From positions 7,321 through 71,320 of the forward strand of contig JALVWQ010000051.1 of the NCBI GenBank assembly GCA_027034975.1: a DNA stretch of 64,000 bases, read 5' to 3'. Each line of letters begins with the position of its first letter. The stretch's first letter is position 1. This document shows, piece after piece, positions 1-52,774 of this stretch. The position numbers and the translations under genes were made by a program. The notes under the pieces were generated by a model. It was not told where the DNA came from, did not search any database, and saw nothing but the letters and a program-made list of their open reading frames with translations. Origin of the DNA: Campylobacteraceae bacterium (GTDB taxonomy: Bacteria > Campylobacterota > Campylobacteria > Campylobacterales > Sulfurovaceae).

Positions 1-284
1 ATGTAGAAATTTGCTAATATATTCTCTCCCTTAGCAATATGAGCAATAGCTAAATTTGTTGCTGCATCGGCTATAAGTTGTTTATCCTCTGAAGAGGTCT
101 TTAGATCTATATAAGCATCATCCGCTGCATCAAGATTAGCTTTTTGGATATTTTCATATATTTTCTTATCACTTCTATCAAATACTGCTTTGGTAATATT
201 GCTATTAGTTTGTATATTCTTATTGGTTGTACAACTACTTATAAAAATTATCAATAACAAACTTAAAACTATTTGCTTAAACAC
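1..284 (-). CDS. Lipoprotein, N-terminal part, probably outer-membrane assembly factor BamD (ComL-like); runs off the window edge
   Basis: Reverse-strand reading from GTG at 284 gives VFKQIVLSLLLIIFISSC-TTNK..., a signal peptide with a lipobox Cys. The following ...AADDAYIDLKTSSEDKQLIADAATNLAIAHIAKGENILANFY resembles the TPR-like N-terminus of epsilonproteobacterial BamD/ComL as I recall it. It is absent from the ORF track because it is truncated. Confidence 0.5.
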   Translation of the reverse strand, partial: MFKQIVLSLLLIIFISSCTTNKNIQTNSNITKAVFDRSDKKIYENIQKANLDAADDAYIDLKTSSEDKQLIADAATNLAIAHIAKGENILANFY

Positions 285-460
285 TCTATTTTCCTTATCA
301 TAGAATATATAATGTAGCAATTATAGCATAAAAAGAGTAGTTACTTCAGATTATGCCAATTTGAATAATTTTTAATAATTTTTATTGTTTTTTAAAAATT
401 TATATAAATATTTAGAGCTATTATGTTAAATTTTGGATAAAAATATGCTATTTTATACCG

Positions 461-466
461 TATAAT
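461..466 (+). promoter_or_regulatory. Candidate -10 box (TATAAT) for the pilin-like operon
   Basis: Exact TATAAT about 55 nt upstream of the preferred ATG at 522, in a very AT-rich leader. No experimental support. Confidence 0.3.
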
Positions 467-521
467 CTGATTATTTTAATTTTTTATGTTAGAATATTGT
501 AATAAAAATAGAGGAATTAGA

Positions 522-3500
522 ATGAAATGGTCTTTCAAAAATATTTTATTTTTGATTTTAATCTTTATATCACAACTTTATGGCTTTGATAACAATGGTC
601 AACCTAATGACGGTAATGACAATTGTCCTGGAGAGACAATAAATCTTTCTCCTACAGGTCCTTCACCTTTTACGGGCAATGGAAATGTTCGTGAAGATAG
701 TGGTGATGACTGGGTTGATAGATTTAAATTTACTGTACCACAAAGTGGGCAAGTTACTGTAACACTTGTTTCAACTAACTATACAGATCTAGATTTTAAA
801 ATGTCAGCTCAGAGATGTGGCCAACAAGATTTAGCCAGAAAGGATGATTCTTATAGTGATACCAAAACTTTCACTTTTAATGCAGTAGCAAACCATACAT
901 ATTATTTAGCTATTTTTGATAATGATTGGATTCATCGTTCAAATCCTTATACTCTTACTATCGATTATCCAACAAATAGCGGGGGTGGCTCATGTGAAAA
1001 TTACGATAGCAATAATGATGGCTGTCCTGGTCGTATAATTACATCAATGGATCAAATTACATCAAGTAAAAGTACTTGTATTACAGGTATATCAAGAAAT
1101 AATGAAGGAAGACACAAAAAGGATTACTACCGTTTTCAAGTACAAACAAATGGAACATTGCGTATAAGAGGAACATCACCTAATAATCATAAATATCATT
1201 TAAGAGTTGGAAGTTCATGTGGGGGAACCCAGTATTATGGTGATACAAGAAGCAAAAATCACGATACTGGCGATATTACACTTCATGCTGGTGATACTAT
1301 ATATATCAGGGCAAAAGAGACCGGTAACGATGATGACCAATACAAATTGAATTTAAGTTTTAAAGCAGATGACAGTGGTACTCCACCAGTAATGAATAGT
1401 GTAGATGATTTAACTGTAGAGAGTGGAGATAGTGTATCTAGGGATTTCTCTTCATATGTTACTAAAACAGATGGTGATGATATTACAGAGTACCAATTGG
1501 GTGGTTCTCTACCTAGCGGCCTCTCTTTTGACAGCAGTACAGGTGTACTAAGCGGTAGTACAACAAGTATAGGTGATTATGACTTAACAATTAAAGCTAA
1601 AGATAAAGATGGATGGTCAAATACAAAGAGTTGGACACTACATGTCATCCAGAAAAGTAACACTCCACCTATAATGAACTCAATTCCGGATCAAAAACTA
1701 CAAATAGATAAAACTTTTAATTTTTCACTTAGTAATTATGTTACTAAAACCAATAATGACCAAATATTGCAGTATCATCTATCAGGGTCTCTGCCAGATG
1801 GTTTAAATTTTAATAAAAATAGTGGGCAAATTACAGGCAAAGTAACCAATACAAACTTAATAGGACAAACATTTACCTTAACGGCTTGGGTAACCGATAA
1901 AGACGGTGACTCTAATAAGCAGAGTTTTAAAATCCGTATTACCGCAAAAGACACTGACATTACTGAAGGTGACAAAGATTTCAAAATAGTCAACTCTATG
2001 GATAGTAGGTTTATAAGAGGTAATTACCTTATTACTGGAAACACTATAATGTGTAATACGGATAATAAAAATCATTTATTCACTCTAAAACCAATACCGT
2101 TTTTCAAAGATTACTACAAACCAAATAGCTATTGCTCAGATATAACAAAAAGTAACCAAGGACGAATAAATAATTATATAGATATCGATAATAACCCTAA
2201 TACATGGAACTCATCTAGTGCCAACTTTACATTACCTCAAAATGCTAGGATTTTATGGGCGGGACTTTTTTGGCAAGGAAACCTAAACAATAGAGGAAAC
2301 TATATTGCACCTGATGGTTATGTTATGCAAAGAAGAGCGGTACCAAATGATAAAAACAATCTTCTCTCTGGTTGGCATTGGGTGTATAATGATGGAAATT
2401 ATGGAGATGAATTTAAGGTACAAGACAGTACTGCAAATCTAATTCTTATAAAAATAGATGGAGAAAGTAGCTACCATCAAATTAAAGCTGACACATTAGC
2501 TGCAAACAATATTTATTATCATGAAACAATTGGTGGACCATATGGTGCTTTTGCAGATATTACGAGCTTAGTAAAACAAAAGAATATTCATCCTGGAAAG
2601 CATAAAATCACTATTGCTAACTTATCTGCAACAAATGGTCAAGATGGTGATTGGTTAGGAAACTGGGGTGGATGGTGTGTTGTGGTTGTTTATGAGAGTA
2701 AAGATGAAAGTATAAAAAATATATCTATCTATAATGGATTTACTAATGTTTTTTACAAAAAAGGGGTTAGTCACAAGAAAGAGATTACAATTTCTGGATT
2801 TAAGCTACCTAATTATCATGATGTTAAAGGCTATATGAGTATTTTCTCTGGTGACGGGGAGATTGGCAATACTGGTGACTTTATATCATTGGATAATAAG
2901 GGTATGCCAGGGGTAAGTGATCCATATAATGTTCTTGATGGTGTAAGTAAAAACTTAGATAGAGACAGTACACCTAGCTACAATAATCTAACAAATATGA
3001 ACACTATAGATATTGATCATTACGATGTTGGTAAAATTATGACTGAACTAAGAGATAGAAATAAAGATGCTCATGAGGTAAAAATTCAGCTTGAAACAAA
3101 AAAGATGCCAAATGGTGGACACGATGCCTTTTTCCCTTCGATGATTGCATTTGCTACAGACCTATATGTACCAAAGGTTTGTTACGATTACGACTTAAAA
3201 GTTGGAAAGTATTACGATTTACCAAGTGACGAAAGGAAATTTAATGCAACAGCTATGGGTAACGAACCTTTAACAACCAAAATAATGTTAAAATCTGAAG
3301 AGGCAGATTTTGATCTTGTAGATGCCAAAATGAAGTTAAAATTTACACCTGGTAATGTGTTTGGATATATTCCAACTATAGCTCAGACAACATATCCAAA
3401 CACTTATGAGTATCATAAAGCAATAGAGATCGACCCAAACGAAGGAGAGATTGCAGTAGGTGCGAATGCAACCACTGAGGGTGGAACAATAGCACCTTTG

Positions 3501-5948
3501 GATTTCTTATATTCAAAACTCTACTATAAATTTAATAAAGCAAGTTTTAATGGGAAATTTGATATTTATTTAGATGCAAAAGTCTCTTTTGATGGTGTGC
3601 ATAAAATCCCTTACACACTCTCTACCGATGAACCGGCTGACTCTATTTTTAATATACCACGATGTGCAGTAAACCCTGTTTATGATCCAGTATATGGAAT
3701 GTTTAATATAGAAAGAGGCGATAGTGATTTTGGTCAAACTGAAGCCGATAGATACTCGCTCTATACTCAAGTTGTTGGCGTCCCATACGAAGTATCTATT
3801 GCAGCATATAAAAAAGACTCTAATGGAGAATATAAATCTAAAGGAAAGGCAACGGCAACGGTTGAATTAGAGTTAATAGATGCAAGTACTTTTGAAAATA
3901 ACAGTAGTAGTGGTTTTGATTCTATATGTAGAGACCCTGATACATACAGTATGGGTAAGTTTGTTAGGTTTAATAATAAATCAAGAGTAAAAGTCAAAAT
4001 TCCAAATGATTTTCCAATTGTTAATGGTCAAAAGACTTATCCTGAAAATCTTGCTTTAAAAAATGCTGCATTTAGGGTATGGGTATTAACAAAAAAAGTT
4101 GGTAATAATAATGTTATAGTTAATCATAACTGCTCGTCTCAAGCCGCAAGTAGCTGTTTTGATAATGTATATGCTCAAAATTATGCATCAACTAATAAAT
4201 GCTCTAGTGAGTGTACAAATAGCACTGGCACAACTTGTTATGACTGTTTAAGAAGACATTTTGCTATCCCTTCTTGTTCTAGAGATAACTTTGCAATCAG
4301 ACCAGAGAGTTATCATATTGCATTAAGCGATAATAATCAAACTTATTCTAATAAAAATATCCTCATTGCACAAAACCGTTCCAATACTGCTGCAAATCTA
4401 GCCGCTGGGTATTTATACCATTTAGACATTAATGCAACTAAATTTAATGATACTATAAATCGTGCTGTAGGGTACTACTTAAATGTAGTAGGAGATAAAA
4501 CTACTAAAAAAGCACAATCACTATTTAATGACTCTTCAAATTGTAATGATCGAGCAAATTATGACTTAAGTGTCTATATGTATGATGGCAAAACATTAGG
4601 TTTTGAAACTTTAGCAGAAAACAAAAATACACCAAAGAATGGTATGTTGCTAAATAATAGTGGAAAGTATAAGCTACATATCGAAGATAATGAATGGACA
4701 AAAGTTGACCAGAAAAACTACCCATATAAACCATTTAGAAACCATGCTGATTGTATTGATAAATCCACATCAATAAATAGTGATATGAAAGGTTGTAGTA
4801 TACAAAGTAACCTCTCTAATAACTATTACGACTTAAATGTAAATATGCATCCATATAGATTTAAATTAGTTTCAATTAGAAGCTCTTCTGCTCCAAATGG
4901 TTCACACAACTATGTATATATTAATGATTTAAGTAGCACTACAAACTTAATTAAAAATAATAGAGATATGGCAATTAAAGTGACTGGAGATGTTGTTGCT
5001 TTAGGGAGAAATGGAAAAACCTTAAGTAACTATATAAATGGATGTAGTGCAAATGATTTAACGCTATCACTTGGCTTTAATACTATACCATCAGATGTAA
5101 AAGATTCTACTGGAAATAGTTTAACACTAAATTATGCACTTTACGATAGAAATGCCGATGGTAATAATGTGGTAGTAAATAGTAGTAGCAGCAATATAGG
5201 ATCTGTTAACTTAAATTTTAAAAAGAGATATTTTTATACACCATCAAAGGGAAGTTTAAATAGTTATTTTAACTTTAAAAGAGAATATAATAATCCAATC
5301 AATCCATTTAAACTCCATTTTGGTACTTTAAATGCAAAAAGTATAAATGAAAAAATAACTGTTGATCTACAAAAGAATTATATTCCAAGTGGTAGTAAAA
5401 ATATTAATAACACGAAAACACTCTATTATGCTAAGCTAAAGTCTGAAGCAGATATTTATGATGATATCTATAAAGATAGAGTCAAAACACCACTTTATGT
5501 TGCAATATTCTGCGATAAGTCGTTAAGTTATTGTGCAAATTATGGAATAGATACGACAAAATCTCTAACAAATGAATATAATTGGTGGCTTAGTTTAAAT
5601 CATGATGGTAATAACGAAGGAGAAGCAATTTTAAAGACAAACCCTAGCAATAAAGCATCAATTAATCCAAGTACTATTAATAATTTTACAGATGGTGTCG
5701 CAAAAGATGTAACTGTAATTTCAAACGATAGAAATAATTTACCATACCTTGTCTTAATTGAGCCTGATACCCAAATGATCAATAGATTCCCTTGGTTGCT
5801 CTATAATAGTTATCAAGATAACCCACCAGCATATATATATAAAGTTCGTTTTGTTAAACAGCCACCAGGATGGTCTGGTCATGGGAAAACTGGGCATACA
5901 ATCAATGTAACAAATAGTGGCCGAAGAACGAAAAAGGTAGATTGGTAA
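522..5948 (+). CDS. Giant secreted multidomain protein (about 1808 aa): 2 PPC-like modules, 2 He_PIG/cadherin-like Ig repeats and about 1300 aa unassigned; putative pilus-associated adhesin (PilY1/MshQ-like role)
   Basis: The track ORF is 486..5948. I prefer ATG 522, which has AGAGGA upstream and gives a signal-peptide-like MKWSFKNILFLILIFISQLYG. Two modules opened by ND-x-CPG carry PPC-like strands (DWVDRFKFTV..., DYYRFQVQTNGTLRIRG...DTIYIRA). Two ~90-aa repeats carry LPSGLSFDSSTGVLSG and LPDGLNFNKNSGQITG. The stop overlaps the next start (TAATG). Confidence 0.85.
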   Translation: MKWSFKNILFLILIFISQLYGFDNNGQPNDGNDNCPGETINLSPTGPSPFTGNGNVREDSGDDWVDRFKFTVPQSGQVTVTLVSTNYTDLDFKMSAQRCGQQDLARKDDSYSDTKTFTFNAVANHTYYLAIFDNDWIHRSNPYTLTIDYPTNSGGGSCENYDSNNDGCPGRIITSMDQITSSKSTCITGISRNNEGRHKKDYYRFQVQTNGTLRIRGTSPNNHKYHLRVGSSCGGTQYYGDTRSKNHDTGDITLHAGDTIYIRAKETGNDDDQYKLNLSFKADDSGTPPVMNSVDDLTVESGDSVSRDFSSYVTKTDGDDITEYQLGGSLPSGLSFDSSTGVLSGSTTSIGDYDLTIKAKDKDGWSNTKSWTLHVIQKSNTPPIMNSIPDQKLQIDKTFNFSLSNYVTKTNNDQILQYHLSGSLPDGLNFNKNSGQITGKVTNTNLIGQTFTLTAWVTDKDGDSNKQSFKIRITAKDTDITEGDKDFKIVNSMDSRFIRGNYLITGNTIMCNTDNKNHLFTLKPIPFFKDYYKPNSYCSDITKSNQGRINNYIDIDNNPNTWNSSSANFTLPQNARILWAGLFWQGNLNNRGNYIAPDGYVMQRRAVPNDKNNLLSGWHWVYNDGNYGDEFKVQDSTANLILIKIDGESSYHQIKADTLAANNIYYHETIGGPYGAFADITSLVKQKNIHPGKHKITIANLSATNGQDGDWLGNWGGWCVVVVYESKDESIKNISIYNGFTNVFYKKGVSHKKEITISGFKLPNYHDVKGYMSIFSGDGEIGNTGDFISLDNKGMPGVSDPYNVLDGVSKNLDRDSTPSYNNLTNMNTIDIDHYDVGKIMTELRDRNKDAHEVKIQLETKKMPNGGHDAFFPSMIAFATDLYVPKVCYDYDLKVGKYYDLPSDERKFNATAMGNEPLTTKIMLKSEEADFDLVDAKMKLKFTPGNVFGYIPTIAQTTYPNTYEYHKAIEIDPNEGEIAVGANATTEGGTIAPLDFLYSKLYYKFNKASFNGKFDIYLDAKVSFDGVHKIPYTLSTDEPADSIFNIPRCAVNPVYDPVYGMFNIERGDSDFGQTEADRYSLYTQVVGVPYEVSIAAYKKDSNGEYKSKGKATATVELELIDASTFENNSSSGFDSICRDPDTYSMGKFVRFNNKSRVKVKIPNDFPIVNGQKTYPENLALKNAAFRVWVLTKKVGNNNVIVNHNCSSQAASSCFDNVYAQNYASTNKCSSECTNSTGTTCYDCLRRHFAIPSCSRDNFAIRPESYHIALSDNNQTYSNKNILIAQNRSNTAANLAAGYLYHLDINATKFNDTINRAVGYYLNVVGDKTTKKAQSLFNDSSNCNDRANYDLSVYMYDGKTLGFETLAENKNTPKNGMLLNNSGKYKLHIEDNEWTKVDQKNYPYKPFRNHADCIDKSTSINSDMKGCSIQSNLSNNYYDLNVNMHPYRFKLVSIRSSSAPNGSHNYVYINDLSSTTNLIKNNRDMAIKVTGDVVALGRNGKTLSNYINGCSANDLTLSLGFNTIPSDVKDSTGNSLTLNYALYDRNADGNNVVVNSSSSNIGSVNLNFKKRYFYTPSKGSLNSYFNFKREYNNPINPFKLHFGTLNAKSINEKITVDLQKNYIPSGSKNINNTKTLYYAKLKSEADIYDDIYKDRVKTPLYVAIFCDKSLSYCANYGIDTTKSLTNEYNWWLSLNHDGNNEGEAILKTNPSNKASINPSTINNFTDGVAKDVTVISNDRNNLPYLVLIEPDTQMINRFPWLLYNSYQDNPPAYIYKVRFVKQPPGWSGHGKTGHTINVTNSGRRTKKVDW

Positions 5949-6673
5949 TGAGAAGAATGAAAAAAGGAATCGCACTTTTAGAACTGATTTTCTCGATAGT
6001 TATTATTGCTATAGCTCTTGTATCTGTGCCAAATTTAATACAAACAACTACAAAAGCAACCAACAAGGTAATTACACAAGAGTCTATCTCAAATGCAGCT
6101 TCGTATGCAAATAAGATAATGGCAGCATTTTGGGATGAAAACTGTACGGATCCATCATATGAAAACCCTATACTCTATGTTCAGAATCAACATTCGAATC
6201 TTCAAGAGCTGAAAGTTAGTGGAATTTTTATAGGAAGAAGAGTTGGTTCTCCCAAGGAGACTTCAAGACGCTTTCGAAATGGTCCAACTGGAGTGCGATT
6301 AACTGCATCGCAAAAATTACAAAAAGAGCCTGGTGAAACTGTGCCTGATGATATAGATGACTATAATGGTACCGTTAGTACACTAAACTTTGTAGATAAT
6401 TCAACAGCTAGTATTAATGATTATAAAGATACACAAGTGTATTTAAGTACTACTGTAGATTATTTAAATGATAATGTAACTAATTATGATCAGTCAACTG
6501 TCACTTTTAACCAACCATTTAATGAGGCTAAAATAAATAAATCGCAAACTACAAATATTAAATTAATAACCATTACATTAACTAGTCTACAAGACAACGA
6601 TAAAAAGGTTGTTTTAAAAGCTTTCTCATGCAATATAGGAAGCAGTAAGTTAAGAGAAAGATTACTCTTTTAA
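5948..6673 (+). CDS. Prepilin-type N-terminal cleavage/methylation domain protein (minor pilin / pseudopilin-like)
   Basis: N-terminus MRRMKKG|IALLELIFSIVIIAIALV has a class III signal (Gly -1, Glu +5, hydrophobic helix). The start overlaps the upstream stop; the track used TTG 5942. Confidence 0.8.
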   Translation: MRRMKKGIALLELIFSIVIIAIALVSVPNLIQTTTKATNKVITQESISNAASYANKIMAAFWDENCTDPSYENPILYVQNQHSNLQELKVSGIFIGRRVGSPKETSRRFRNGPTGVRLTASQKLQKEPGETVPDDIDDYNGTVSTLNFVDNSTASINDYKDTQVYLSTTVDYLNDNVTNYDQSTVTFNQPFNEAKINKSQTTNIKLITITLTSLQDNDKKVVLKAFSCNIGSSKLRERLLF

Positions 6674-6702
6674 TTAACATTAAGAGTATTGAAAGGATAG
6701 AG

Positions 6703-7605
6703 TTGAAAAAAGCATTTACATTGATTGAGCTTGTATTAACAATTGTAATTCTCTCAATTGTTGCATATATTTCTAGTGACCTTATTGCAAGAACCTACAT
6801 GGGATACAATAGAGTGAATAATCTACAACGGGCAAATTTACGTGTTGAGATTGCATTAAACTCTATTGTAAATCGATTAGAGAATGCAATAGAAGGTACA
6901 ATTGTTAAGAGGGTAAGTGAAACAGACACAACAATGACTTCTATTGATAATGCAACTCCAGAATATAATGTATTAGAGTGGGTTGGGAACGATATTGATG
7001 GTTTTGAAGCTCATAAAAATAGCTCTGGAACTGTAGCCACAACTCTTGATACACCAGCATGGAGTGGTTTTTGTGATGTTGCAAAAAGTACAAAAACTAA
7101 GATTGTAACACCTGGTTCCAATTTAGACTTTGCAGAAAATATTATTTTCCATCTTTCAAATGCAAATGTTACTTTTACCAATAGTCAAGCTGCTCTCTTT
7201 TTCCCTGGAAATTACAATTTTAGAAATATTGGTTATGGAGGAAGTACGAACAACGGTGTGGCTATAATCTCTGGGAAAAACTCAACTGAACCCTCTTTTT
7301 CTCTTTTAAATCCAATTAGTCGAGTGACAGAACACTATAAGTTAGCTTGGAGTGCTTATGCAGTTGTACCAGTCAACTGTAATGCCGATGGAGTGTGTGA
7401 TTTAGAGCTACGATACAATTTTAGACCGTGGAGAGGTGTAGATTACAATTCCGCAAATGTCTCTAAATCACTCTTAACAAAAAATGTAAAAGTCTTTAAG
7501 ACTTATGCTACACAGAATAGAATTCATATTAAACTTTGTGTTCAAGAGAGACTTGGGGTAAATAGCAAAACTACAGTTTGCAAAGAGAAGGTGGTATTTA
7601 GATGA
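6703..7605 (+). CDS. Prepilin-type protein, PilW/MshO-like in size (300 aa)
   Basis: MKKA|FTLIELVLTIVILSIVAY is the canonical FTLIE motif. TTG start is preceded by AAGGA. The stop overlaps the next ATG (ATGA). Confidence 0.8.
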   Translation: MKKAFTLIELVLTIVILSIVAYISSDLIARTYMGYNRVNNLQRANLRVEIALNSIVNRLENAIEGTIVKRVSETDTTMTSIDNATPEYNVLEWVGNDIDGFEAHKNSSGTVATTLDTPAWSGFCDVAKSTKTKIVTPGSNLDFAENIIFHLSNANVTFTNSQAALFFPGNYNFRNIGYGGSTNNGVAIISGKNSTEPSFSLLNPISRVTEHYKLAWSAYAVVPVNCNADGVCDLELRYNFRPWRGVDYNSANVSKSLLTKNVKVFKTYATQNRIHIKLCVQERLGVNSKTTVCKEKVVFR

Positions 7606-8093
7606 GAATGAGAGATGGTTTTTCACTACTAGTTGCAATTTTTACAATTGTTTTAATCTCTCTTGTAGGAGCTTATATTTTTCATGCAAGTAGTGCTACA
7701 GTAAAAGAGGGTGAACTGCAATACAAAAAAGAGCAAGCAATGTTGCTGGCTAGAAGCTATACTGAGTATGCAGTTATGGCAATTACTGCAAATAAGCGAA
7801 ATGGAGCGAGCAAGGATTGCATTGATAAAATTAATGGAAATATAGGTAGCAATCCAACTCTTGGACAAGGGTATAGAGTGCGAGTAGAGATTACCTATAT
7901 TGGTAATCAACGCTATGTCAATAAATGTACAAATATAGCTGCAACACTAAGTAATAGCGATGTTGATACATTAAGTGCAATTATCGATGTTTATGTTGAG
8001 TATAGAGAGATTACACACCCTGATCTTTATAATGGGAATATTAATTTAGTACCTTGGCAAACCTACCATAAAAGGAGTATTCAAAAAATATGA
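7602..8093 (+). CDS. Pilin-like protein lacking Glu5 (PilX / GspK / MshP-like), 163 aa
   Basis: MRMRDG|FSLLVAIFTIVLISLVGAY has a pilin-type hydrophobic N-terminus with Val where Glu5 normally sits. It is translationally coupled on both sides. Confidence 0.75.
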   Translation: MRMRDGFSLLVAIFTIVLISLVGAYIFHASSATVKEGELQYKKEQAMLLARSYTEYAVMAITANKRNGASKDCIDKINGNIGSNPTLGQGYRVRVEITYIGNQRYVNKCTNIAATLSNSDVDTLSAIIDVYVEYREITHPDLYNGNINLVPWQTYHKRSIQKI

Positions 8094-8788
8094 AAAGAAA
8101 AGCCTTTAGCCTTATAGAACTTCTTTTAGCAATAGTTGTATTAGGAATTTTAGCCACTTACTCTACTCAAATGCTCAATAGAGATACACGTACAGAGGCA
8201 ATGAACCATATTCTAGCTATGATAAGGTATACACAAAATTTAGCACTACACGATAAAAAACACGATAGAAATAATGCTTATTGGCAACGATCCTTTTGGA
8301 GAATTGAGTTTTGGGGATGTCGTAACGGAACAGGGTTATACTATAAAATTGGCACAGATGCTGACTATAGTGGTGGTACAGATGGTATTAGCGAAGATGA
8401 AGTAGCTATAGATCCTAGTAATGGAAAGTATCTCTACTGGACAGGATTAACAGAGTGCTTAAAAAGTACAGATGATCCCCTGAAACAAGATGTTAGCCCT
8501 AATGTTTTCTTAACACAAAGATATGGAATTGATAGGGTAGAATTTATAGATTGCGATATACAAAAAGATGGATCAAGAATTAGTGATGATGGTCACCATA
8601 TTGGCTTTGATAACTTTGGAAGACCAATTAAAGCTAATTATTCAACTACGGCACCGGATTACTCAGGTCACATGGTAGGAGATTGTAAAATTAAATTCAG
8701 TTTCACAGATAGCTCTATAGATCCTTTCACAATTGTAGTAAAAGCAGAAAGTGGCTATGCATACATTAAAGAGAAACCTAACTTATAG
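8090..8788 (+). CDS. Prepilin-type protein, GspH/FimT/FimU-like (232 aa)
   Basis: MKRKA|FSLIELLLAIVVLGILATY is followed by ...TEAMNHILAMIRYTQNLAL, resembling the helix after the pilin N-terminus in GspH/FimT-type minor pilins. ATGA overlap with the upstream gene. Confidence 0.8.
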   Translation: MKRKAFSLIELLLAIVVLGILATYSTQMLNRDTRTEAMNHILAMIRYTQNLALHDKKHDRNNAYWQRSFWRIEFWGCRNGTGLYYKIGTDADYSGGTDGISEDEVAIDPSNGKYLYWTGLTECLKSTDDPLKQDVSPNVFLTQRYGIDRVEFIDCDIQKDGSRISDDGHHIGFDNFGRPIKANYSTTAPDYSGHMVGDCKIKFSFTDSSIDPFTIVVKAESGYAYIKEKPNL

Positions 8789-8797
8789 TGAAGGGTA

Positions 8798-8947
8798 TTA
8801 CTTACGATCTCTCTTCTCTTTTTCGACTAAATCTTTTCGTTCGCCATCCTCGTTAAATTTACTTTCGAAATTTCTTTTAATTATTAAAAAGGTCATAAAA
8901 GCAAAAAGGATAGCAACAATAATATAGAGGTAATCAAAAAATCCCAT
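8798..8947 (-). CDS. Small membrane protein (49 aa), hypothetical
   Basis: My own translation, too short for the track: MGFFDYLYIIVAILFAFMTFLIIKRNFESKFNEDGERKDLVEKEKRDRK. One TM helix and a charged tail. It starts 10 nt after the trmL stop on the same strand. Confidence 0.4.
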   Translation of the reverse strand: MGFFDYLYIIVAILFAFMTFLIIKRNFESKFNEDGERKDLVEKEKRDRK

Positions 8948-8956
8948 TATGAGCCT

Positions 8957-9445
8957 TTACGATTTAAAGTCTATAGTGATCTTTTTAAAATCACTCTGAG
9001 AGTAGTTTTGTCGTAGAGCTTCGTAGGTAACAATACCGGTACTTGTGGCAAGATTGAGGCTTCTGCCCTTTTCGCCCATTGGTATTGTAATGCATTTATC
9101 TAAATTAGCTTTCAATAGATCTTCTGGTAACCCTTTTGTTTCGGCTCCAAAGACTAAGTAGTCTCCACTCTTATACTCTGCTTCCCAGTAGATTCTATCT
9201 ACCTTTGTTGTGGCAAAGTGCATCTTCTCTATTGGGTTATTGGCTAAAAATACTTCTAGACTCTCCCATACAGTTAAATCTAACTCATTCCAGTAGTCTA
9301 AGCCTGCTCTTCGAATCGCTTTTTCATCTATTTGAAAGCACATAGGCTCAATAAGGTGCAACTTAGCACCCAAGTTAACACACATTCTACCAATACTACC
9401 TGTATTTTGTGGAATCTGAGGCTCTACTAAAACGATATTAAACAT
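8957..9445 (-). CDS. trmL: tRNA (cytidine/uridine-2'-O-)-methyltransferase TrmL (SpoU family)
   Basis: MFNIVLVEPQIPQNTGSIGRMCVNLGAKLHLIEP...RRAGLDYW aligns closely with my memory of E. coli TrmL/YibK. Confidence 0.85.
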   Translation of the reverse strand: MFNIVLVEPQIPQNTGSIGRMCVNLGAKLHLIEPMCFQIDEKAIRRAGLDYWNELDLTVWESLEVFLANNPIEKMHFATTKVDRIYWEAEYKSGDYLVFGAETKGLPEDLLKANLDKCITIPMGEKGRSLNLATSTGIVTYEALRQNYSQSDFKKITIDFKS

Positions 9446-34275: not shown

Positions 34276-36348
34276 TTATTTACCATATGAGATACCAAAT
34301 GGTAGAATTGTAAAGTTAAAAGAGAAGTAGTTGTTCTTAATCGAACTTTGACCACTCGATTTTAATACAGGACGAATATCTTGCCCAAAACTAAATCGAA
34401 CAGCCCAACACTTTCTATTAAAATCTGTCGTAACATTCCAATTACTCACTTTTTTATAGCTGAAATCATAGTCAGCACTAGCAGAAAATTTAAGTCTATT
34501 GCTATATTTATAATAAGAACTAAAAGTCAACTGCTTAGATAATGTTGCAAAGCTTTGGTAATCTCTATTCCATAAATAGCCTAAAGAGAGCCCATATTTA
34601 CCATTACTATAGCCAATTGTATTATGTATCTCTCTTAATTTTTTCGCATCAACTGAGTAGTCTAAGAAAGAGTAAAAAGACCAATTTTCATATTTTAAAT
34701 AGAATGTATTTTCAATATTTTCAAACTTCTTATTATCTAAGTTATAACTACTCTCCAATATATGATCGATACTTAATTTACTACCAAAAGAGCTCCAAAT
34801 CTGATGGGCTCTAAGTGCAATTTCATGTCTATAGGCAAGATCATCAACAAAGTCCTCTTTTAAATCAGCTGGAATTTCATCATACTTCATCCAACTTTCA
34901 CTCAACTTATTACTTTTTGTATAAACAGCACTCAACATTAAAGTGTGAATACCACTATCATAAACTTTCGTTAAATCGGATGAAAGTGAGACTTTATGAT
35001 TCAGGCTAACTCTTTCATACTTTTTATTTTTAAGTGGCACATTGATAAATCTATATGCACTCATTTGCAGCTCTTCTGAAATATCTAAATTTAAATAGTT
35101 ATTCAACAGAGAGAAGTGAGCAAAAAGTGGAGCCTTAATAACTGATTTTCCAGCCTTTGTCCCTTTATTTCTAGTTAAATTAGCGTTTGTTGCATCCAAA
35201 GAGTAAGAGATACTATTCCCTACTAAACTTGTAAATGGCATATGAAACTGTATCTGTGGTAAAATCTGAATAGTATCATCATTATGCTCTTTTACGGTCG
35301 ATTTATAAAAGTCTGATGTTATACCAACATAAAAAGAGTCACTCTTTTTAATATAGTAGTTTAACCTTGAGTCATAGTACGAACCAACTCTATAATGACT
35401 AAGAGGATTTGCACTTAAATTAAAATAGTCACCATCATTAAAATAGGTTCCATTAATATAGAGTTTATTTTCATAACCATTGTTTGCAAGGCTATCTAAA
35501 AGAGAGCCATTCAGGTAATTAAACTCAATACCATAGTGTTTACTATGCAATAAGTTTTCTTTCTCTACATAACTCTTTTTATCTTTATAATATCCAGCAC
35601 GGATTGCTCCAAAAGCATCTTTTGCATGATAGAATCTATATTCAGCACTAACACCATATCCTCTTTTTGCCATTATTTGTGCATCTATTGTTAAGTCTTG
35701 ACTACGACTTATATTCCAAAAGTATGGCTGTCTATATGAAAAACCATCTTTTCCTCTTATGCTAATTTCTGGATAGAGAAAACCGCTTCTTCTCTCATTT
35801 GATAGAGGTATATAGAGATAAGGGAAATAAAAGACAGGTACCTTTTTCACATAGACTTTAGCATCATAAAACTTAACTACTTCCGATTCAGTATCATAGA
35901 TCGCTTTATTAAACCCTAACATCCAGTCAGGATCATTGACATCACAGCTAGAGAAAAGAGCATTTTCAACTTTTATCTTATTCTCTTTTTTCTCTCCATC
36001 TGTACTACTAATCCATATATGGTCTCTCCCCATTGTAAAGAAGTCCTTAAAGACTACATGATTGTCATCTAAGTTTACTGTTAACTCTTTAGCGCGAATG
36101 CGTTTTCCACTCTTTTCAATTAGTGTTACATCTCCTTGCAAGAGTATCGAGTTTTTAGCTTTATTATACTTCGCACTCTGGGCACGAAATAGTGAGCCAT
36201 CATGCTCTACAACAACACCATCATTAGCAATCAAATTGCCTTGCTCTTGATGTACCTCTTTTGCATATACTGCAACTTCGCTTGTCTCAGCATGCACTAG
36301 TGTAAGTGCCAAAACCGTACTTAGTATTATTCTATCTATTTTCAACAT
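34276..36348 (-). CDS. lptD: LPS-assembly outer membrane protein LptD (OstA)
   Basis: Signal peptide, OstA N-terminal domain, aromatic/Tyr-rich beta-barrel ending in ...FGISYGK; 690 aa. Confidence 0.85.
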   Translation of the reverse strand: MLKIDRIILSTVLALTLVHAETSEVAVYAKEVHQEQGNLIANDGVVVEHDGSLFRAQSAKYNKAKNSILLQGDVTLIEKSGKRIRAKELTVNLDDNHVVFKDFFTMGRDHIWISSTDGEKKENKIKVENALFSSCDVNDPDWMLGFNKAIYDTESEVVKFYDAKVYVKKVPVFYFPYLYIPLSNERRSGFLYPEISIRGKDGFSYRQPYFWNISRSQDLTIDAQIMAKRGYGVSAEYRFYHAKDAFGAIRAGYYKDKKSYVEKENLLHSKHYGIEFNYLNGSLLDSLANNGYENKLYINGTYFNDGDYFNLSANPLSHYRVGSYYDSRLNYYIKKSDSFYVGITSDFYKSTVKEHNDDTIQILPQIQFHMPFTSLVGNSISYSLDATNANLTRNKGTKAGKSVIKAPLFAHFSLLNNYLNLDISEELQMSAYRFINVPLKNKKYERVSLNHKVSLSSDLTKVYDSGIHTLMLSAVYTKSNKLSESWMKYDEIPADLKEDFVDDLAYRHEIALRAHQIWSSFGSKLSIDHILESSYNLDNKKFENIENTFYLKYENWSFYSFLDYSVDAKKLREIHNTIGYSNGKYGLSLGYLWNRDYQSFATLSKQLTFSSYYKYSNRLKFSASADYDFSYKKVSNWNVTTDFNRKCWAVRFSFGQDIRPVLKSSGQSSIKNNYFSFNFTILPFGISYGK

Positions 36349-50836: not shown

Positions 50837-52774
50837 ATGAGCGATAGTTGCAAAAAAACTTATATAACCACTCCTATATACTATGTAAATGATGTTCCAC
50901 ATATTGGACACGCCTATACAACAATAATAGCCGATACTTTAGCAATATACTCAAGAATGGTAGGTTACGACACATTCTTTTTAACAGGTACAGATGAGCA
51001 TGGGCAAAAGATTGAGCAAGCTGCAAAGCAAAGAGGTAAAACCCCACAAGAGTATGCAGATGAGATTAGCTCCTATTTTAAAAATCTCTGGGATGAGTTC
51101 GATATCACATACGATAAATTTATTCGAACTACAGACGAAGAGCACAAAAAAGGTGTACAAGTAGCATTCGAGAAGATGCTTAAAAATGGCGACATCTACA
51201 AAGGTACCTACAAAGGGCACTACTGCATTAGTTGCGAAACATTCTTTACCGAAACACAAATAGTAGATGGCGAACTCTGCCCAGATTGTGGCAAAGAGAC
51301 AACTATAGTTGAAGAGGAGAGCTACTTCTTTAAACTCTCGAAGTATCAAGAGAGACTCTTAGCATGGTACAAAGAGAATGAGAAGTGCATTATGCCAAAG
51401 ACAAGAAGAAACGAAGTGATGCGATTTGTAGAGGGTGGTTTAGAAGATCTCTCAATTACAAGAACAAGCTTCGATTGGGGTGTGAAATTACCAGAGAGTG
51501 TAAATGACCCTAAACATGTTATCTATGTATGGCTCGATGCTCTTATGAACTATCTAACTGCACTAGGGTATGGAACAACAGAAGAAAAGATGGACTACTG
51601 GCCTGCAAAGGTGCACTTAATTGGTAAAGATATTCTCAGGTTCCATGCTATCTTTTGGCCTGCATTCTTAATGAGTTTGGAGCTTCCATTGCCAGACCAT
51701 ATTGCAGCTCATGGTTGGTGGACAAGAAATGGCGAAAAGATGAGTAAATCAAAAGGGAATGTCATTAACCCAAAAGAGGTTGCAGATGCTTATGGCCTAG
51801 AGAACTTTAGATACTTTATGCTACGCGAAGTACCATTTGGTGGCGATGGTGACTTTAGCCAAAAGGCACTTATTGATAGAATCAACTCTGACTTAGGGAA
51901 CGACCTAGGAAATCTCCTTAACCGACTTATCGGTATGAGCGGCAAATATAGCGATGGCAAAGTAAGTAGCCAAAATGTAGTAAAGTACTACAATGCAGAA
52001 CTAGAGGAGATGAACGCTTCGCTCGATAAACTAGAGCCACTCCTTTACGATATGCAACTCCACCGCTACCTCGAAGAGCTTTGGAGACCTCTTAGCATTG
52101 CAAATAAAGCGATAGATAAATACCAACCTTGGAACCTTATGAAAGAGGGTAAAGAGGAGGAGGCTTTAGCACTCAATGGCTTAATTGCAAATATCTTAGC
52201 AAAAGTTGCTATTATGCTCCACCCTGTAATGCCAAAGACAACGAATAAAATTGCAGAGGCTCTTAACTTTACAATCGATGTATCAAATTACAACACTTTA
52301 GTTAAAAATAGAGATCTCTTAGCAGACTTTACTATTAGTAAAATTCCGCCACTCTTCCCTAGAATCGAAGAGCAGCTCTTAGAAGAGGCTAAGCCACCAA
52401 AAGAGGAACCTAAAACAAAAAAAGAGAGTAAAAAAGAGCCAACAGCTGGTGTTATAACAATCGATCAATTCTTCCAAACAGAGCTTAAAATTGGAACTAT
52501 CGTAGAAGCCGAAGAGGTGCCAAAGAGTAAAAAACTCTTAAAACTCAAAGTTGACCTTGGCGAAGAGCAACCACGACAGATTATTGCAGGAATTAAAGAG
52601 TGGTATAAAGCAGAAGATTTAGTTGGCACTCAAGCGTGTGTAGTAGCAAACCTTAAACCAGCTAAATTAATGGGAATGCTCAGCGAAGGGATGCTACTAG
52701 CAGCCAAAGATGAGAGCGGCTTAAGCCTCCTTCGTCCAGAAGCACCAAAAGTTGCAGGAACTAAAGTATCGTAA
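50837..52774 (+). CDS. metG: Methionine--tRNA ligase
   Basis: YYVNDVPHIGHAYT (HIGH), zinc knuckle CxxC...CPDC, KMSKSKGN, C-terminal EMAP/tRNA-binding domain. Confidence 0.95.
   Translation: MSDSCKKTYITTPIYYVNDVPHIGHAYTTIIADTLAIYSRMVGYDTFFLTGTDEHGQKIEQAAKQRGKTPQEYADEISSYFKNLWDEFDITYDKFIRTTDEEHKKGVQVAFEKMLKNGDIYKGTYKGHYCISCETFFTETQIVDGELCPDCGKETTIVEEESYFFKLSKYQERLLAWYKENEKCIMPKTRRNEVMRFVEGGLEDLSITRTSFDWGVKLPESVNDPKHVIYVWLDALMNYLTALGYGTTEEKMDYWPAKVHLIGKDILRFHAIFWPAFLMSLELPLPDHIAAHGWWTRNGEKMSKSKGNVINPKEVADAYGLENFRYFMLREVPFGGDGDFSQKALIDRINSDLGNDLGNLLNRLIGMSGKYSDGKVSSQNVVKYYNAELEEMNASLDKLEPLLYDMQLHRYLEELWRPLSIANKAIDKYQPWNLMKEGKEEEALALNGLIANILAKVAIMLHPVMPKTTNKIAEALNFTIDVSNYNTLVKNRDLLADFTISKIPPLFPRIEEQLLEEAKPPKEEPKTKKESKKEPTAGVITIDQFFQTELKIGTIVEAEEVPKSKKLLKLKVDLGEEQPRQIIAGIKEWYKAEDLVGTQACVVANLKPAKLMGMLSEGMLLAAKDESGLSLLRPEAPKVAGTKVS

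What the first reader, a model, noticed from the sequence alone, without database searches (positions are those of the whole stretch)
522..8788. Orphan five-gene operon: giant secreted multidomain protein plus four prepilin-type proteins, with no assembly machinery nearby
All five ORFs are on one strand with overlapping or near-abutting stop/start codons: TAATG at 5946-5950, ATGA at 7602-7605 and at 8090-8093, and a 29-nt gap with AAGGA before 6703. This argues for a single co-translated unit. Three of the four small proteins have canonical class III signal sequences ((G/A)|(F/I)xxxE followed by a hydrophobic helix), and one lacks Glu5. One large non-pilin protein plus a GspH/FimU-like, a PilW/MshO-sized and a Glu5-less PilX/GspK/MshP-like pilin mirrors the priming/tip complexes of type IV pili (FimU-PilVWXY1) and MSHA pili (MshD-O-P-Q). 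The large gene comes first here. Its N-terminal half is built from PPC and He_PIG modules that I do not associate with PilY1. The flanks are a divergent bamD-like gene and a housekeeping operon (trmL/purU/leuBD). No major pilin, PilB/PilT-type ATPase, platform protein, secretin or prepilin peptidase occurs in the other 55 kb. Classical type IV pili are not a well-known feature of this phylum, where Campylobacter uses a T2SS-like Cts system for DNA uptake. The filament this module serves, and its function (adhesion, DNA uptake or secretion), are therefore open.
Basis: partly seen in the sequence, partly recalled or inferred. Interest (0 to 1): 0.72.

Follow-up and report, generated by a model that had tools for sequence, protein, structure and literature searches.

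The report
Pilus-tip module with giant adhesin
This is a conserved five-gene unit of sulfur-oxidising Campylobacterota encoding four pilin-like "starter" proteins and a giant sticky surface protein; together they most likely form the adhesive tip that starts a type IV pilus, and the giant protein belongs to a large, undescribed family.

Summary
Five same-strand ORFs (522-8788) overlap or nearly abut, and they carry the only three GFxxxE-type prepilin signals in the 64-kb window. A fourth prepilin-like N-terminus lacks Glu5. The rest of the window is housekeeping.

The block is not a remnant. The core A-B-C-D is contiguous in about 60 related Campylobacterota genomes (Sulfurovum, Nitratifractor, Sulfurimonas, Hydrogenimonas). 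It always sits between lon/bamD and hpf/recG, and no pilus machinery lies within 10 kb.

Weak but consistent HMM hits, Glu5 status and gene order suggest B=PilV/GspI-type, C=PilW/GspJ/ComGF-type, D=PilX/GspK/MshP-type and E=FimU/GspH-type. None reaches a curated cutoff, and no Pfam minor-pilin globular domain is detected.

Protein A has shuffled N-terminal adhesin modules and a conserved core of about 1300 aa with no Pfam family. The two AlphaFold2 models covering that core are all-beta, without a PilY1-like propeller. A ends in a disordered but conserved tail, [RK]-hydrophobic-x-W. This fits the 2026 model in which a tip adhesin donates its last strand to the K-type minor pilin.

Best reading: the initiation/tip complex of an MSHA- or T4aP-like filament whose motor is encoded elsewhere. 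This is a new variant of a known kind. The filament and its function remain untested.

The parts
291..521 (+). AT-rich divergent intergenic region between the bamD-like gene and gene A. It holds a TATAAT at 461-466 and GAGGAA (511-516) before the ATG at 522. It is the presumed operon promoter and 5' UTR.
   Evidence: Sequence read directly. The consensus promoter scan is no better than shuffles, so the promoter is inferred only.
522..5948 (+). Gene A: a 1808-aa exported non-pilin protein and putative pilus-tip adhesin. It has a Sec-type signal peptide, variable adhesin modules, a conserved core of about 1320 aa and a conserved C-terminal tail.
   Evidence: ORF. Full-length homologues. Always followed by B-C-D.
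522..584 (+). Signal peptide of A (MKWSFKNILFLILIFISQLYG). It is not of the prepilin type and has no lipobox Cys.
   Evidence: Sequence. Family consensus. The cleavage site is inferred.
714..914 (+). PPC-like module 1 (aa 65-131). A second, weakly similar module follows at about 966-1370.
   Evidence: Pfam PPC E 8.8e-4, below cutoff. 8 of 18 family members hit PPC, best 5.4e-6. Internal similarity E 1e-4. Module 2 is absent from some orthologues.
1383..1946 (+). Two He_PIG (Ig-like) domains (aa 288-475).
   Evidence: Pfam He_PIG E 4.5e-22, two stretches. PDB sequence hit to the SraP adhesin.
1986..5840 (+). Conserved family core of A (aa 489-1773). It comprises a lectin-like jelly-roll region (WAGLFWQG...GGWxxVVVY), a CYDYD-containing beta region, a Cys-rich helical linker (C..SRDNFAIRP) and an array of Ig-like beta-sandwiches. 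No Pfam or NCBIfam family matches it.
   Evidence: Length-conserved in all 18 aligned homologues. Profile search gives 5106 cluster representatives. AF2 models have pLDDT 81.9 and 86.8 and are all-beta. Foldseek gives generic beta-sandwich hits only, TM<0.2. No Pfam hits in the core.
5841..5945 (+). C-terminal tail of A (last 35 aa: ...WSGHGKTGHTINVTNSGRRTKKVDW). It is disordered in the monomer model but conserved. It is the proposed beta-strand donor to pilin D.
   Evidence: pLDDT <50 for the last 25 residues. Motifs W-[SA]-G-x-G-x-T-G-x-V-V and [RK]-[MLIV]-x-W-COOH; 155 of 164 family members end in W. Mechanism by analogy to PMC13533445.
5948..6673 (+). Gene B: a 241-aa prepilin-like protein (G|IALLE, Glu5 present). 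Putative PilV/GspI/MshD-type minor pilin.
   Evidence: Start overlaps A's stop. Glu invariant in 35 orthologues. PilV is the top NCBIfam hit in 18/35 orthologues, best 7.2e-6, all below cutoff.
6703..7605 (+). Gene C: a 300-aa prepilin-like protein (A|FTLIE, TTG start). Putative PilW/GspJ/MshO/ComGF-type minor pilin.
   Evidence: N_methyl/TIGR02532 above cutoff. F5/E9 invariant. ComGF hit in 31/35 orthologues, best 5.4e-6. 1482 homologues, all annotated only as generic prepilin/T2SS protein.
7602..8093 (+). Gene D: a 163-aa pilin-like protein without Glu5 (G|FSLLV). Putative PilX/PilK/GspK/MshP-type tip pilin and proposed acceptor of A's C-terminal strand.
   Evidence: ATGA overlap with C. Position +5 is T/V in the family consensus, never conserved Glu. 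GspK is the top NCBIfam hit in 27/35 orthologues, best 8.7e-6, N-terminal region only, far below the 130-bit cutoff.
8090..8788 (+). Gene E: a 232-aa prepilin-like protein (A|FSLIE). Putative FimU/GspH-type linker minor pilin. Its position varies between genomes.
   Evidence: ATGA overlap with D. N_methyl/TIGR02532 above cutoff. GspH hit in 35/35 orthologues, but PpdD/GspG/PilA hit too. Found after D, divergent upstream of A, or absent within 10 kb.

Best explanation
The five genes encode the initiation/tip complex of a type IV filament, most likely an MSHA-like or T4aP-like adhesive pilus. Its ATPase, platform, secretin, prepilin peptidase and major pilin are encoded elsewhere in the genome. 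Shown: the genes form one tightly coupled, conserved unit; three products have Glu5 prepilin signals and one is Glu5-less; A is a Sec-exported, all-beta, modular protein with a conserved unstructured C-terminal tail. Inferred, step 1: B, C, D and E are processed by a prepilin peptidase and sit in the inner membrane. Step 2: the last 10-25 residues of periplasmic A (...[RK]-hydrophobic-x-W) add a beta-strand to the small Glu5-less pilin D, as shown for PilC/PilY1 with PilK/PilX and predicted for MshQ with MshP. Step 3: the A-D pair is recognised by a B-C (I-J type) heterodimer, and E (H type) links this cap to the major pilin. Step 4: the complex licenses polymerisation, rides out through the secretin at the fibre tip, and presents A's interchangeable N-terminal adhesin modules (here PPC-like x2 plus He_PIG x2) to a surface ligand. 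The function is therefore surface, particle or host attachment by vent and sediment Campylobacterota.
For: Operon structure with overlapping stop/start codons. These are the only prepilin motifs in the 64 kb. A-B-C-D is contiguous in about 60 loci from Sulfurovaceae, Nitratifractor, Sulfurimonas, Hydrogenimonas and others, with intact ORFs at 25-60% identity. Glu5 is invariant in B, C and E and absent in D across 35 orthologues each. The leading specific HMM hits fit PilV for B, ComGF (=GspJ) for C, GspK for D and GspH for E, matching the canonical I-J-K gene order (order rule and equivalence table in PMC13533445). D is too small (163 aa) to be a T2SS GspK that supplies the strand in cis. A has variable N-terminal adhesin domains (He_PIG, Big_9, cadherin-like, Calx-beta, PA14, LamG, F5/8C, CUB) on a constant core. 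This is the same layout logic as PilY1 (variable N-terminus, conserved C-terminus), a comparison I make from my own knowledge of PilY1. A's tail is disordered yet conserved, with an invariant terminal W. Tandem extra copies of A and of B-C-D occur in one genome; from my own knowledge, Myxococcus carries multiple interchangeable PilY1/minor-pilin clusters in the same way. Type IV filament machinery is reported in the phylum.
Against: No protein reaches a curated family cutoff beyond the generic N-terminal methylation domain. The informative HMM hits cover only about the first 60 residues. Pfam finds no GspH/I/J/K, PilW or PilX domain in 124 orthologues. PDB profile searches hit only the alpha1 helix. 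A has no PilY1/PilC domain, no beta-propeller and no DUF6701 hit. The gene order is adhesin-first, unlike pilVWXY1 and mshDOPQ. I could not model the complex or inspect the rest of the genome, so neither the A-D contact nor a cognate machine in this organism is shown. E's N-terminus matches major pilins as well as it matches GspH.
Confidence: 0.68

Rival explanations
1. It is a dedicated T2SS-like pseudopilus set (GspH-I-J-K equivalents), and A is its secreted or surface-anchored cargo rather than a fibre-tip subunit. The pseudopilins would push A through a secretin, and A would then act as a free or cell-bound adhesin.
For: NCBI names orthologues 'type II secretion system protein'. The best specific hits include GspK and GspH. 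Gsp genes and GspD are reported in relatives. A has a Sec signal and adhesin domains.
Against: D is 163 aa, about half the size of the GspK model (307 positions), and matches only its first ~67 positions. T2SS GspK supplies the terminal strand in cis (PMC13533445), whereas here a conserved tail sits on A. No gspG-like major pseudopilin or other gsp gene lies within 10 kb in 81 loci. From general knowledge, cargo genes are not normally translationally coupled to minor pseudopilin genes.
Confidence: 0.12
2. It is the minor-pilin set of a Cts/Com-like DNA-uptake (competence) pilus. A would act as a DNA or surface receptor at the tip.
For: C, D and E orthologues hit ComGF, ComGE and ComGD/ComGC models weakly. 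From my own knowledge, Campylobacter uses a T2SS-like Cts system for transformation. PilC/PilY1-type tips are needed for DNA uptake in Neisseria and Acinetobacter.
Against: Com and V. cholerae competence pili lack a large tip protein, and their K-type pilin carries the strand in cis. A's domains are adhesin and lectin types with no recognisable DNA-binding module. The Com hits are limited to the N-terminal helix region.
Confidence: 0.1
3. It is a decayed or non-functional remnant of a lost pilus system.
For: No machinery in the window or within 10 kb in any related locus.
Against: All five ORFs are intact and translationally coupled. The block is conserved at 25-60% identity across many genera, with invariant functional residues: Glu5, many Cys, and the terminal W. 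Modules are duplicated in some genomes. The family has thousands of cluster representatives.
Confidence: 0.03

Closest known systems
FimU-PilV-PilW-PilX-PilY1 (Pseudomonas/Acinetobacter) and PilH-I-J-K plus PilC (Neisseria): the T4aP priming/tip complex
   Same: Four minor pilins, one of them Glu5-less, plus one large Sec-exported non-pilin protein in one operon. I-J-K gene order. The operon is separate from pilBCD/pilMNOPQ. The large protein has a variable N-terminus, a conserved C-terminal part and a functionally critical extreme C-terminal peptide (PMC13533445).
   Different: A has no PilY1/PilC beta-propeller or vWA domain; its core is a string of beta-sandwiches. The adhesin gene comes first, not last. 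The globular pilin domains match no Pfam PilW/PilX/GspH family.
MshD-MshO-MshP-MshQ of the Vibrio cholerae MSHA pilus
   Same: Three I-J-K-type pilins next to a non-PilY1 protein of about 1200 or more aa, which is predicted to donate its C-terminus to the K-type pilin. MSH-type systems were detected in Epsilonproteobacteria, and MshL is annotated in Sulfurovum indicum. D (163 aa) and C (300 aa) are, from memory, of MshP- and MshO-like size.
   Different: In Vibrio these genes lie inside a complete msh locus with mshQ last. Here the module stands alone and A is first. No detectable sequence match to DUF6701, the domain I recall as MshQ's C-terminal family. Homology between A and MshQ could not be tested directly because no MshQ sequence was at hand.
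Myxococcus xanthus minor-pilin/PilY1 clusters 1-3
   Same: Several alternative minor-pilin-plus-large-adhesin cassettes per genome that presumably serve one machine. Compare the tandem A-B-C-D / A / A-B-C-D-E in L020 and the two modules in one Sulfurovum MAG.
   Different: The Myxococcus large proteins are PilY1 homologues. This comparison rests on my knowledge of Treuner-Lange et al. 2020 and was not checked here.
T2SS GspH-I-J-K pseudopilus tip (E. coli GspIJK, P. aeruginosa XcpVWX)
   Same: Same four functional classes and the same order of I-J-K. The K-type lacks Glu5. GspK and GspH are the best specific HMM hits for D and E.
   Different: No large partner protein. GspK is about 300 aa and carries the terminal strand itself. 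gspG and the rest of the gsp operon are adjacent in T2SS loci. All hits here fall far below the equivalog cutoffs.
Verru_Chthon cassette proteins A-D (TIGR02600/02598/02599/02596)
   Same: An uncharacterised cassette of one large protein plus prepilin-type proteins that recurs away from assembly genes. C and E orthologues hit cassette proteins C and D weakly (13/35 and 31/35).
   Different: Scores are far below cutoff (18 bits against 256 bits). The cassette belongs to a different phylum and its function is unknown too. Its description is from my memory of TIGRFAMs.

Membership tests
Type IV pilin-like proteins (class III signal; PF07963 N_methyl / TIGR02532) | HMM match to the N-terminal cleavage/methylation domain above the curated cutoff | tested here: met
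   C: 24.7 bits (cutoff 21.2) and 23.2 bits (16.3). E: 27.4 and 26.7 bits. B is below cutoff (16.9 bits) and D has no hit. TIGR02532 hit in 35/35 C and 35/35 E orthologues.
Type IV pilin-like proteins (class III signal; PF07963 N_methyl / TIGR02532) | (G/A)|(F/I)xxxE followed by a ~20-residue hydrophobic helix; Glu at +5 | tested here: met
   B G|IALLE, C A|FTLIE, E A|FSLIE. Glu is invariant in 35 orthologues of each. D has the helix but not Glu5.
Type IV pilin-like proteins (class III signal; PF07963 N_methyl / TIGR02532) | Cleavage and N-methylation by a prepilin peptidase (PilD/GspO) | not testable with these tools
   No peptidase gene in the window.
GspK/PilX/PilK/MshP-type (K-type) minor pilin, for protein D | Pilin-like N-terminus lacking Glu5 | tested here: met
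   Position +5 is V in the window and T/V in the consensus of 35 orthologues.
GspK/PilX/PilK/MshP-type (K-type) minor pilin, for protein D | Match to a K-type family model (NF037980 GspK; Pfam T2SSK/PilX/PilX_N) at the curated cutoff | tested here: not met
   GspK 14.3 bits against a 130-bit cutoff. 27/35 orthologues hit it (best E 8.7e-6), but only model positions ~2-67. No Pfam K-type family in the orthologues.
GspK/PilX/PilK/MshP-type (K-type) minor pilin, for protein D | Encoded immediately after I- and J-type genes | tested here: met
   B-C-D order in the window and in about 60 loci. The I/J labels themselves rest on weak hits.
GspK/PilX/PilK/MshP-type (K-type) minor pilin, for protein D | Beta-sheet completed by a terminal strand (in cis, or in trans from the tip adhesin) | not testable with these tools
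PilY1/PilC tip adhesins (PF05567 Neisseria_PilC) | C-terminal PilY1/PilC beta-propeller domain | tested here: not met
   No PF05567 hit in A or in 17 homologues at E<=1. The AF2 models of aa 483-1808 are beta-sandwich arrays. Foldseek finds no propeller or PilY1 structure.
PilY1/PilC tip adhesins (PF05567 Neisseria_PilC) | Large Sec-exported non-pilin protein co-encoded with core minor pilins | tested here: met
PilY1/PilC tip adhesins (PF05567 Neisseria_PilC) | Essential extreme C-terminal peptide that inserts into the K-type pilin | tested here: inconclusive
   The tail is conserved ([RK]-[MLIV]-x-W, 155/164) and disordered in the monomer model. Insertion was not modelled or tested.
MshQ (MSHA pilus large protein) | Sequence homology to MshQ (C-terminal DUF6701, as I recall the Pfam assignment) | tested here: not met
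   No DUF6701 hit at E<=0.1 (A) or E<=1 (18 homologues). Caveat: the DUF6701-MshQ link is from memory, and no MshQ sequence was available for a profile-profile test.
MshQ (MSHA pilus large protein) | Located last in mshD-O-P-Q within a complete msh locus | tested here: not met
   A is first, and no msh assembly genes lie within 10 kb in 81 loci.
T2SS minor pseudopilins GspH/GspI/GspJ | Equivalog HMM score above cutoff (TIGR01708, TIGR01707; Pfam T2SSI/T2SSJ/GspH) | tested here: not met
   E against GspH 14.5 bits (cutoff 80). B against GspI 13.2 bits (44.35). No GspJ hit. No Pfam family in 124 orthologues.
Verru_Chthon cassette (TIGR02596/02599/02600) | Subfamily HMM score above cutoff | tested here: not met
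   C against TIGR02599 18 bits (cutoff 256.5). The best orthologue E-value is 4.3e-6.

The most novel reading that the evidence does not exclude
Protein A founds a third class of type IV filament tip proteins, unrelated in fold to PilY1/PilC and not detectably related to MshQ. It has a ~1300-aa all-beta stalk and a terminal [RK]-hydrophobic-x-W peptide that plugs into a miniature Glu5-less pilin. Together with its own divergent H-I-J-K pilins, it would be the main modular attachment organelle of chemolithotrophic vent and sediment Campylobacterota (Sulfurovum, Nitratifractor, Sulfurimonas). Swapping the N-terminal adhesin cassettes would retarget cells to sulfur, mineral or animal-host surfaces.
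Probability: 0.4. Interest if true: 0.68.

Novelty: new variant of a known kind. Interest (0 to 1): 0.55.

Why it matters
Sulfurovum, Nitratifractor and Sulfurimonas dominate hydrothermal-vent chimneys, sulfidic sediments and animal epibiont communities, yet how they attach is largely unknown. If this module is a pilus tip, it gives a concrete, widely conserved genetic handle on that attachment: at least 230 species-level genomes, and thousands of protein clusters for A's core. The shuffled N-terminal domains would be a direct readout of ligand specificity. It also extends the newly proposed "beta-strand addition" licensing rule (PNAS 2026) to a tip protein with a different fold and to a phylum where type IV filaments are barely studied, and it supplies a testable prediction: deleting the last ~12 residues of A should abolish piliation. 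Finally, A's core and the globular domains of B-E have no Pfam or NCBIfam model, so they are currently annotated only as 'putative Ig domain-containing', 'hypothetical' or generic 'type II secretion system protein'.

Tried and rejected
1. Direct family assignment. Pfam and NCBIfam on the five proteins, Pfam on 18 A homologues and on 124 pilin orthologues gave nothing beyond He_PIG, weak PPC and N_methyl. No DUF6701, PilY1, GspH/I/J/K, PilW or PilX.

2. PDB sequence searches with single proteins and with profiles gave only the SraP Ig-like region for A and alpha1-helix matches for the pilins.

3. Foldseek of the two AF2 models against PDB gave only generic multi-beta-sandwich proteins at TM<0.2. 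This rules out a PilY1-like propeller but names no fold relative. Whole multi-domain models are poor Foldseek queries, and I could not split them into domains.

4. tblastn of A's core against plasmids, hoping to land on an annotated mshQ, matched only the lectin-like domain in Thermus/Deinococcus 'DUF11 domain-containing' proteins.

5. The first homologue search with full-length A made the family look rare (18 members), because He_PIG word matches swamped the candidate list. The exhaustive profile search and the genome scan corrected this.

6. I looked for pilus machinery next to the module by clustering all ORFs in 81 loci within 10 kb either side. There was none, only lon, bamD, hpf, a recG-like helicase, M16 peptidase and similar genes.

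7. Organism identification by exact protein look-up returned unnamed MAG and metagenome records only.

8. The phase-variation idea failed: no homopolymer tracts of 7 or more G/C in 1-9000.

9. A large alignment of 71 long sequences failed in the tool, so I used 32.

10. I rejected reading 'GWSGHGKT' in A's tail as a Walker A motif: the first Gly is not conserved and the protein is exported.

Full report
OBSERVATION. The five ORFs exist as described, all on the + strand. They are A at 522 (or 486)-5948, B at 5948-6673, C at 6703-7605, D at 7602-8093 and E at 8090-8788. I read each junction directly. A's TAA and B's ATG share a base (TAATG, 5946-5950). C/D and D/E overlap as ATGA at 7602-7605 and 8090-8093, each preceded by a Shine-Dalgarno-like motif. 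B and C are separated by 29 nt, with AAAGGA five bases before a TTG start at 6703. GAGGAA precedes the ATG at 522, and TATAAT lies at 461-466. This favours 522 over the 486 start used in one database gene call. C and E pass the curated cutoffs of PF07963 and TIGR02532. B carries the motif (G|IALLE) but scores below cutoff. D (G|FSLLV) has the hydrophobic helix without Glu5. A six-frame scan of the whole window finds only these three GFxxxE-type sites. He_PIG x2 in A is solid, whereas PPC is sub-threshold. A second N-terminal module resembles the first weakly. These modules occupy about the first 480 of 1808 residues, a quarter rather than half. The truncated upstream gene belongs to the BamD/YfiO cluster. 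Pfam on 40 other large ORFs of the window gives only housekeeping functions. The window holds one tRNA and no other Rfam hit.

THE BLOCK IS A CONSERVED UNIT, NOT A RELIC. The first word-indexed search made A look rare, with 18 full-length relatives. That was an artefact of He_PIG matches crowding the candidate list. A profile of A's C-terminal 1161 residues, searched exhaustively, finds 5106 cluster representatives at E<=1e-3 and 1306 at E<=1e-30. The best 150 all match the profile end to end or nearly so (E<=1e-199), behind N-terminal extensions of 0 to about 1970 residues. A scan of one genome per species with the invariant motif C[SA]RDNF[AS][IV]R gives 230 confirmed loci. Of the 80 listed, 79 are labelled by record title as Campylobacterota and one only as an uncultured bacterium: Sulfurovum/Sulfurovaceae, Nitratifractor, Sulfurimonas, Sulfuricurvum, Hydrogenimonas and Sulfurospirillum MAGs, plus the complete genome of Sulfurovum sp. 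CS9. tblastn of B-E against these loci shows A-B-C-D contiguous wherever the contig extends far enough. E lies directly after D, or divergently upstream of A next to bamD, or is absent within 10 kb. I clustered all ORFs within 10 kb in 81 loci. The recurrent neighbours are lon, bamD, hpf, a recG-like helicase, an M16 peptidase, a menaquinone radical-SAM gene, nusB and ribH. Type IV filament machinery never appears among them. 'Orphan' is therefore the ancestral, stable arrangement in a core-genome neighbourhood. One Sulfurovum MAG carries A-B-C-D, a second A, a split third A and B-C-D-E in tandem. Another has two modules on separate contigs.

THE FOUR SMALL PROTEINS. In alignments of 35 orthologues each, Glu5 is invariant in B, C and E. 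In D the +1 Phe is invariant and +5 is Thr/Val. I scanned every orthologue against NCBIfam. For D, GspK is by far the commonest hit (27/35, best 8.7e-6). For C, ComGF hits 31/35 (best 5.4e-6), and Verru_Chthon cassette protein C hits 13/35. ComGF is the GspJ/PilW/MshO equivalent in Table 1 of PMC13533445. For B, PilV hits 18/35 (best 7.2e-6). For E, GspH hits 35/35, but so do PpdD, and nearly as many GspG and PilA. These hits fit the near-universal I-J-K gene order, with an H-type pilin of variable position. They are nonetheless weak. All lie far below the curated cutoffs and cover roughly the first 60 residues. Pfam finds nothing but N_methyl in 124 orthologues. PDB profile searches hit only the alpha1 helix. 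The 1482 homologues of C are annotated only as generic prepilin or 'type II secretion system protein'. The H/I/J/K labels are thus inferences from N-terminal similarity, Glu5 status, size and synteny. The globular domains are novel at the sequence level.

THE GIANT PROTEIN. A starts with an ordinary Sec signal. Its N-terminal region is modular and shuffled between relatives. Proteins 47-58% identical to A in the core carry Big_9/cadherin-like/Calx-beta/DUF11 modules instead of PPC/He_PIG. Others have PA14, LamG, F5/8 type C or CUB. Whole modules come and go between close orthologues. The following ~1320 residues are length-conserved in all aligned members, with many invariant Cys, Trp and Gly. 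AlphaFold2 models of residues 483-1233 (pLDDT 81.9) and 1223-1808 (pLDDT 86.8) are essentially all-beta. They show a lectin-like jelly-roll region, further sandwiches, a short Cys-rich helical linker and an array of Ig-like domains. Foldseek against PDB returns only generic multi-sandwich proteins at TM<0.2, and no PilY1 propeller. No Pfam or NCBIfam model covers the core in any member. The lectin-like part alone resembles Thermus/Deinococcus 'DUF11 domain-containing' proteins. The last 25 residues are predicted disordered (pLDDT <50) yet conserved. The motifs are W-[SA]-G-x-G-x-T-G-x-V-V, then a variable spacer, then [RK]-[MLIV]-x-W at the carboxyl end. Of 164 family members, 155 end in Trp.

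MECHANISM. Ellison et al. (PNAS 2026, PMC13533445) showed that the last ~10-12 residues of PilC/PilY1 complete the beta-sheet of the Glu5-less PilK/PilX pilin. This step licenses recognition by the PilI-PilJ dimer and hence fibre initiation. In T2SS, GspK carries that strand itself. They also predicted that MshQ, a non-PilY1 protein of ~1200 aa, does the same for MshP. The module here has the matching ingredients. There is a very small Glu5-less pilin (D, 163 aa, half the length of the GspK model). There is an I-J-K-ordered trio. There is a large exported partner whose only unstructured conserved element is its extreme C-terminus. I therefore propose that A's tail docks into D, that B-C recognise the pair, and that E links the cap to a major pilin encoded elsewhere. 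The cap would then be carried to the fibre tip, displaying A's adhesin modules. The operon, the conservation, the signals, the fold class and the tail conservation are shown. The contacts, the processing, the identity of the machine and the adhesive function are inferred.

WHICH FILAMENT. I could not search the rest of this genome. Published work shows that type IV filament machinery is present in the phylum. MSH-type systems were detected in Epsilonproteobacteria (bioRxiv 10.1101/576694). Scattered T4P gene sets occur in all Thiovulum genomes examined (PMC9938260). MshL and Gsp genes are annotated in Sulfurovum indicum, and mshL is induced on elemental sulfur (PMC10045233). Nautilia has two PilQ genes and a GspD (PMC10092268). 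An MSHA-like or T4aP-like pilus is therefore the likeliest host. The small D and the trans-tail argue against a classical T2SS and against Com/Cts-type competence pili, whose K-type pilin has the strand in cis.

COMPARISON AND NOVELTY. Functionally the module works like FimU-PilVWXY1, PilHIJK-PilC and MshDOPQ. It fails the membership tests for PilY1/PilC (no domain, no propeller) and for the GspH/I/J/K equivalogs. It also fails for DUF6701, which I recall as MshQ's C-terminal family. The adhesin-first gene order and the stand-alone position also differ. It is best filed as a new variant of a known kind. I found no paper on it: the one hit for 'Sulfurovum' plus 'minor pilin' was unrelated, and every source name seen is generic.

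LIMITS. I had no multimer modelling, no access to the whole genome and no MshQ sequence for a profile-profile test. Foldseek was run on whole multi-domain models. The taxonomic breadth beyond the 80 listed loci is unknown.

Noticed in passing
L020:2-19718 (Sulfurovum sp. MAG D100SM.bin.10, JAKIUE010000022.1): Tandem amplification of the module: A(partial)-B-C-D, then a second full A (1942 aa), then a third A split into 778- and 947-aa ORFs, then B-C-D-E and hpf. This points to alternative tip sets for one machine, or to recent duplication and decay.
   Followed up: partly
L030 and L034 (both Sulfurovum sp. S141_75, WFYB01); L013 and L041 (Nitratifractor MAG CAZCOI01): Some genomes hold two separate copies of the A(-B-C-D-E) module on different contigs.
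   Followed up: no
L038:7140-8370: Two E-type (GspH-like) pilin genes lie in tandem after D in one MAG.
   Followed up: no
window 5865-5888 (A residues ~1782-1789, GWSGHGKT): The tail of the window's protein A happens to match a Walker A pattern (GxxxxGKT). The first Gly is not conserved in the family and the protein is exported, so this is most likely coincidental.
   Followed up: yes
window ~2540-3220 (A residues ~673-900): The lectin-like domain (WAGLFWQG...GGWxxVVVY) is shared at 23-31% identity with 'DUF11 domain-containing'/hypothetical proteins on Thermus, Deinococcus and Kitasatospora megaplasmids. It is therefore a more widely used surface-protein module without a Pfam model of its own.
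   Followed up: partly
window 486-521: One public gene call starts A at ATG 486 (1820 aa). The ATG at 522 has the ribosome-binding site and yields a proper signal peptide, so the deposited product is probably 12 residues too long.
   Followed up: yes
window 1-290 and related loci L001, L002, L008-L087: The module sits in a strongly conserved housekeeping neighbourhood: lon - bamD - [E] - A-B-C-D - [E] - hpf - recG-like helicase - M16 peptidase. In the window's lineage it sits next to trmL/purU/leuBD instead. The constant adjacency to bamD is unexplained.
   Followed up: partly
window 52774-53763 (+): A 329-aa ORF directly after metG with no Pfam match at E<=1e-5.
   Followed up: no
window 34276-36348 (-): A 690-aa ORF with only marginal LptD_N/LptC hits. 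It may be a divergent LptD-like outer-membrane protein.
   Followed up: no
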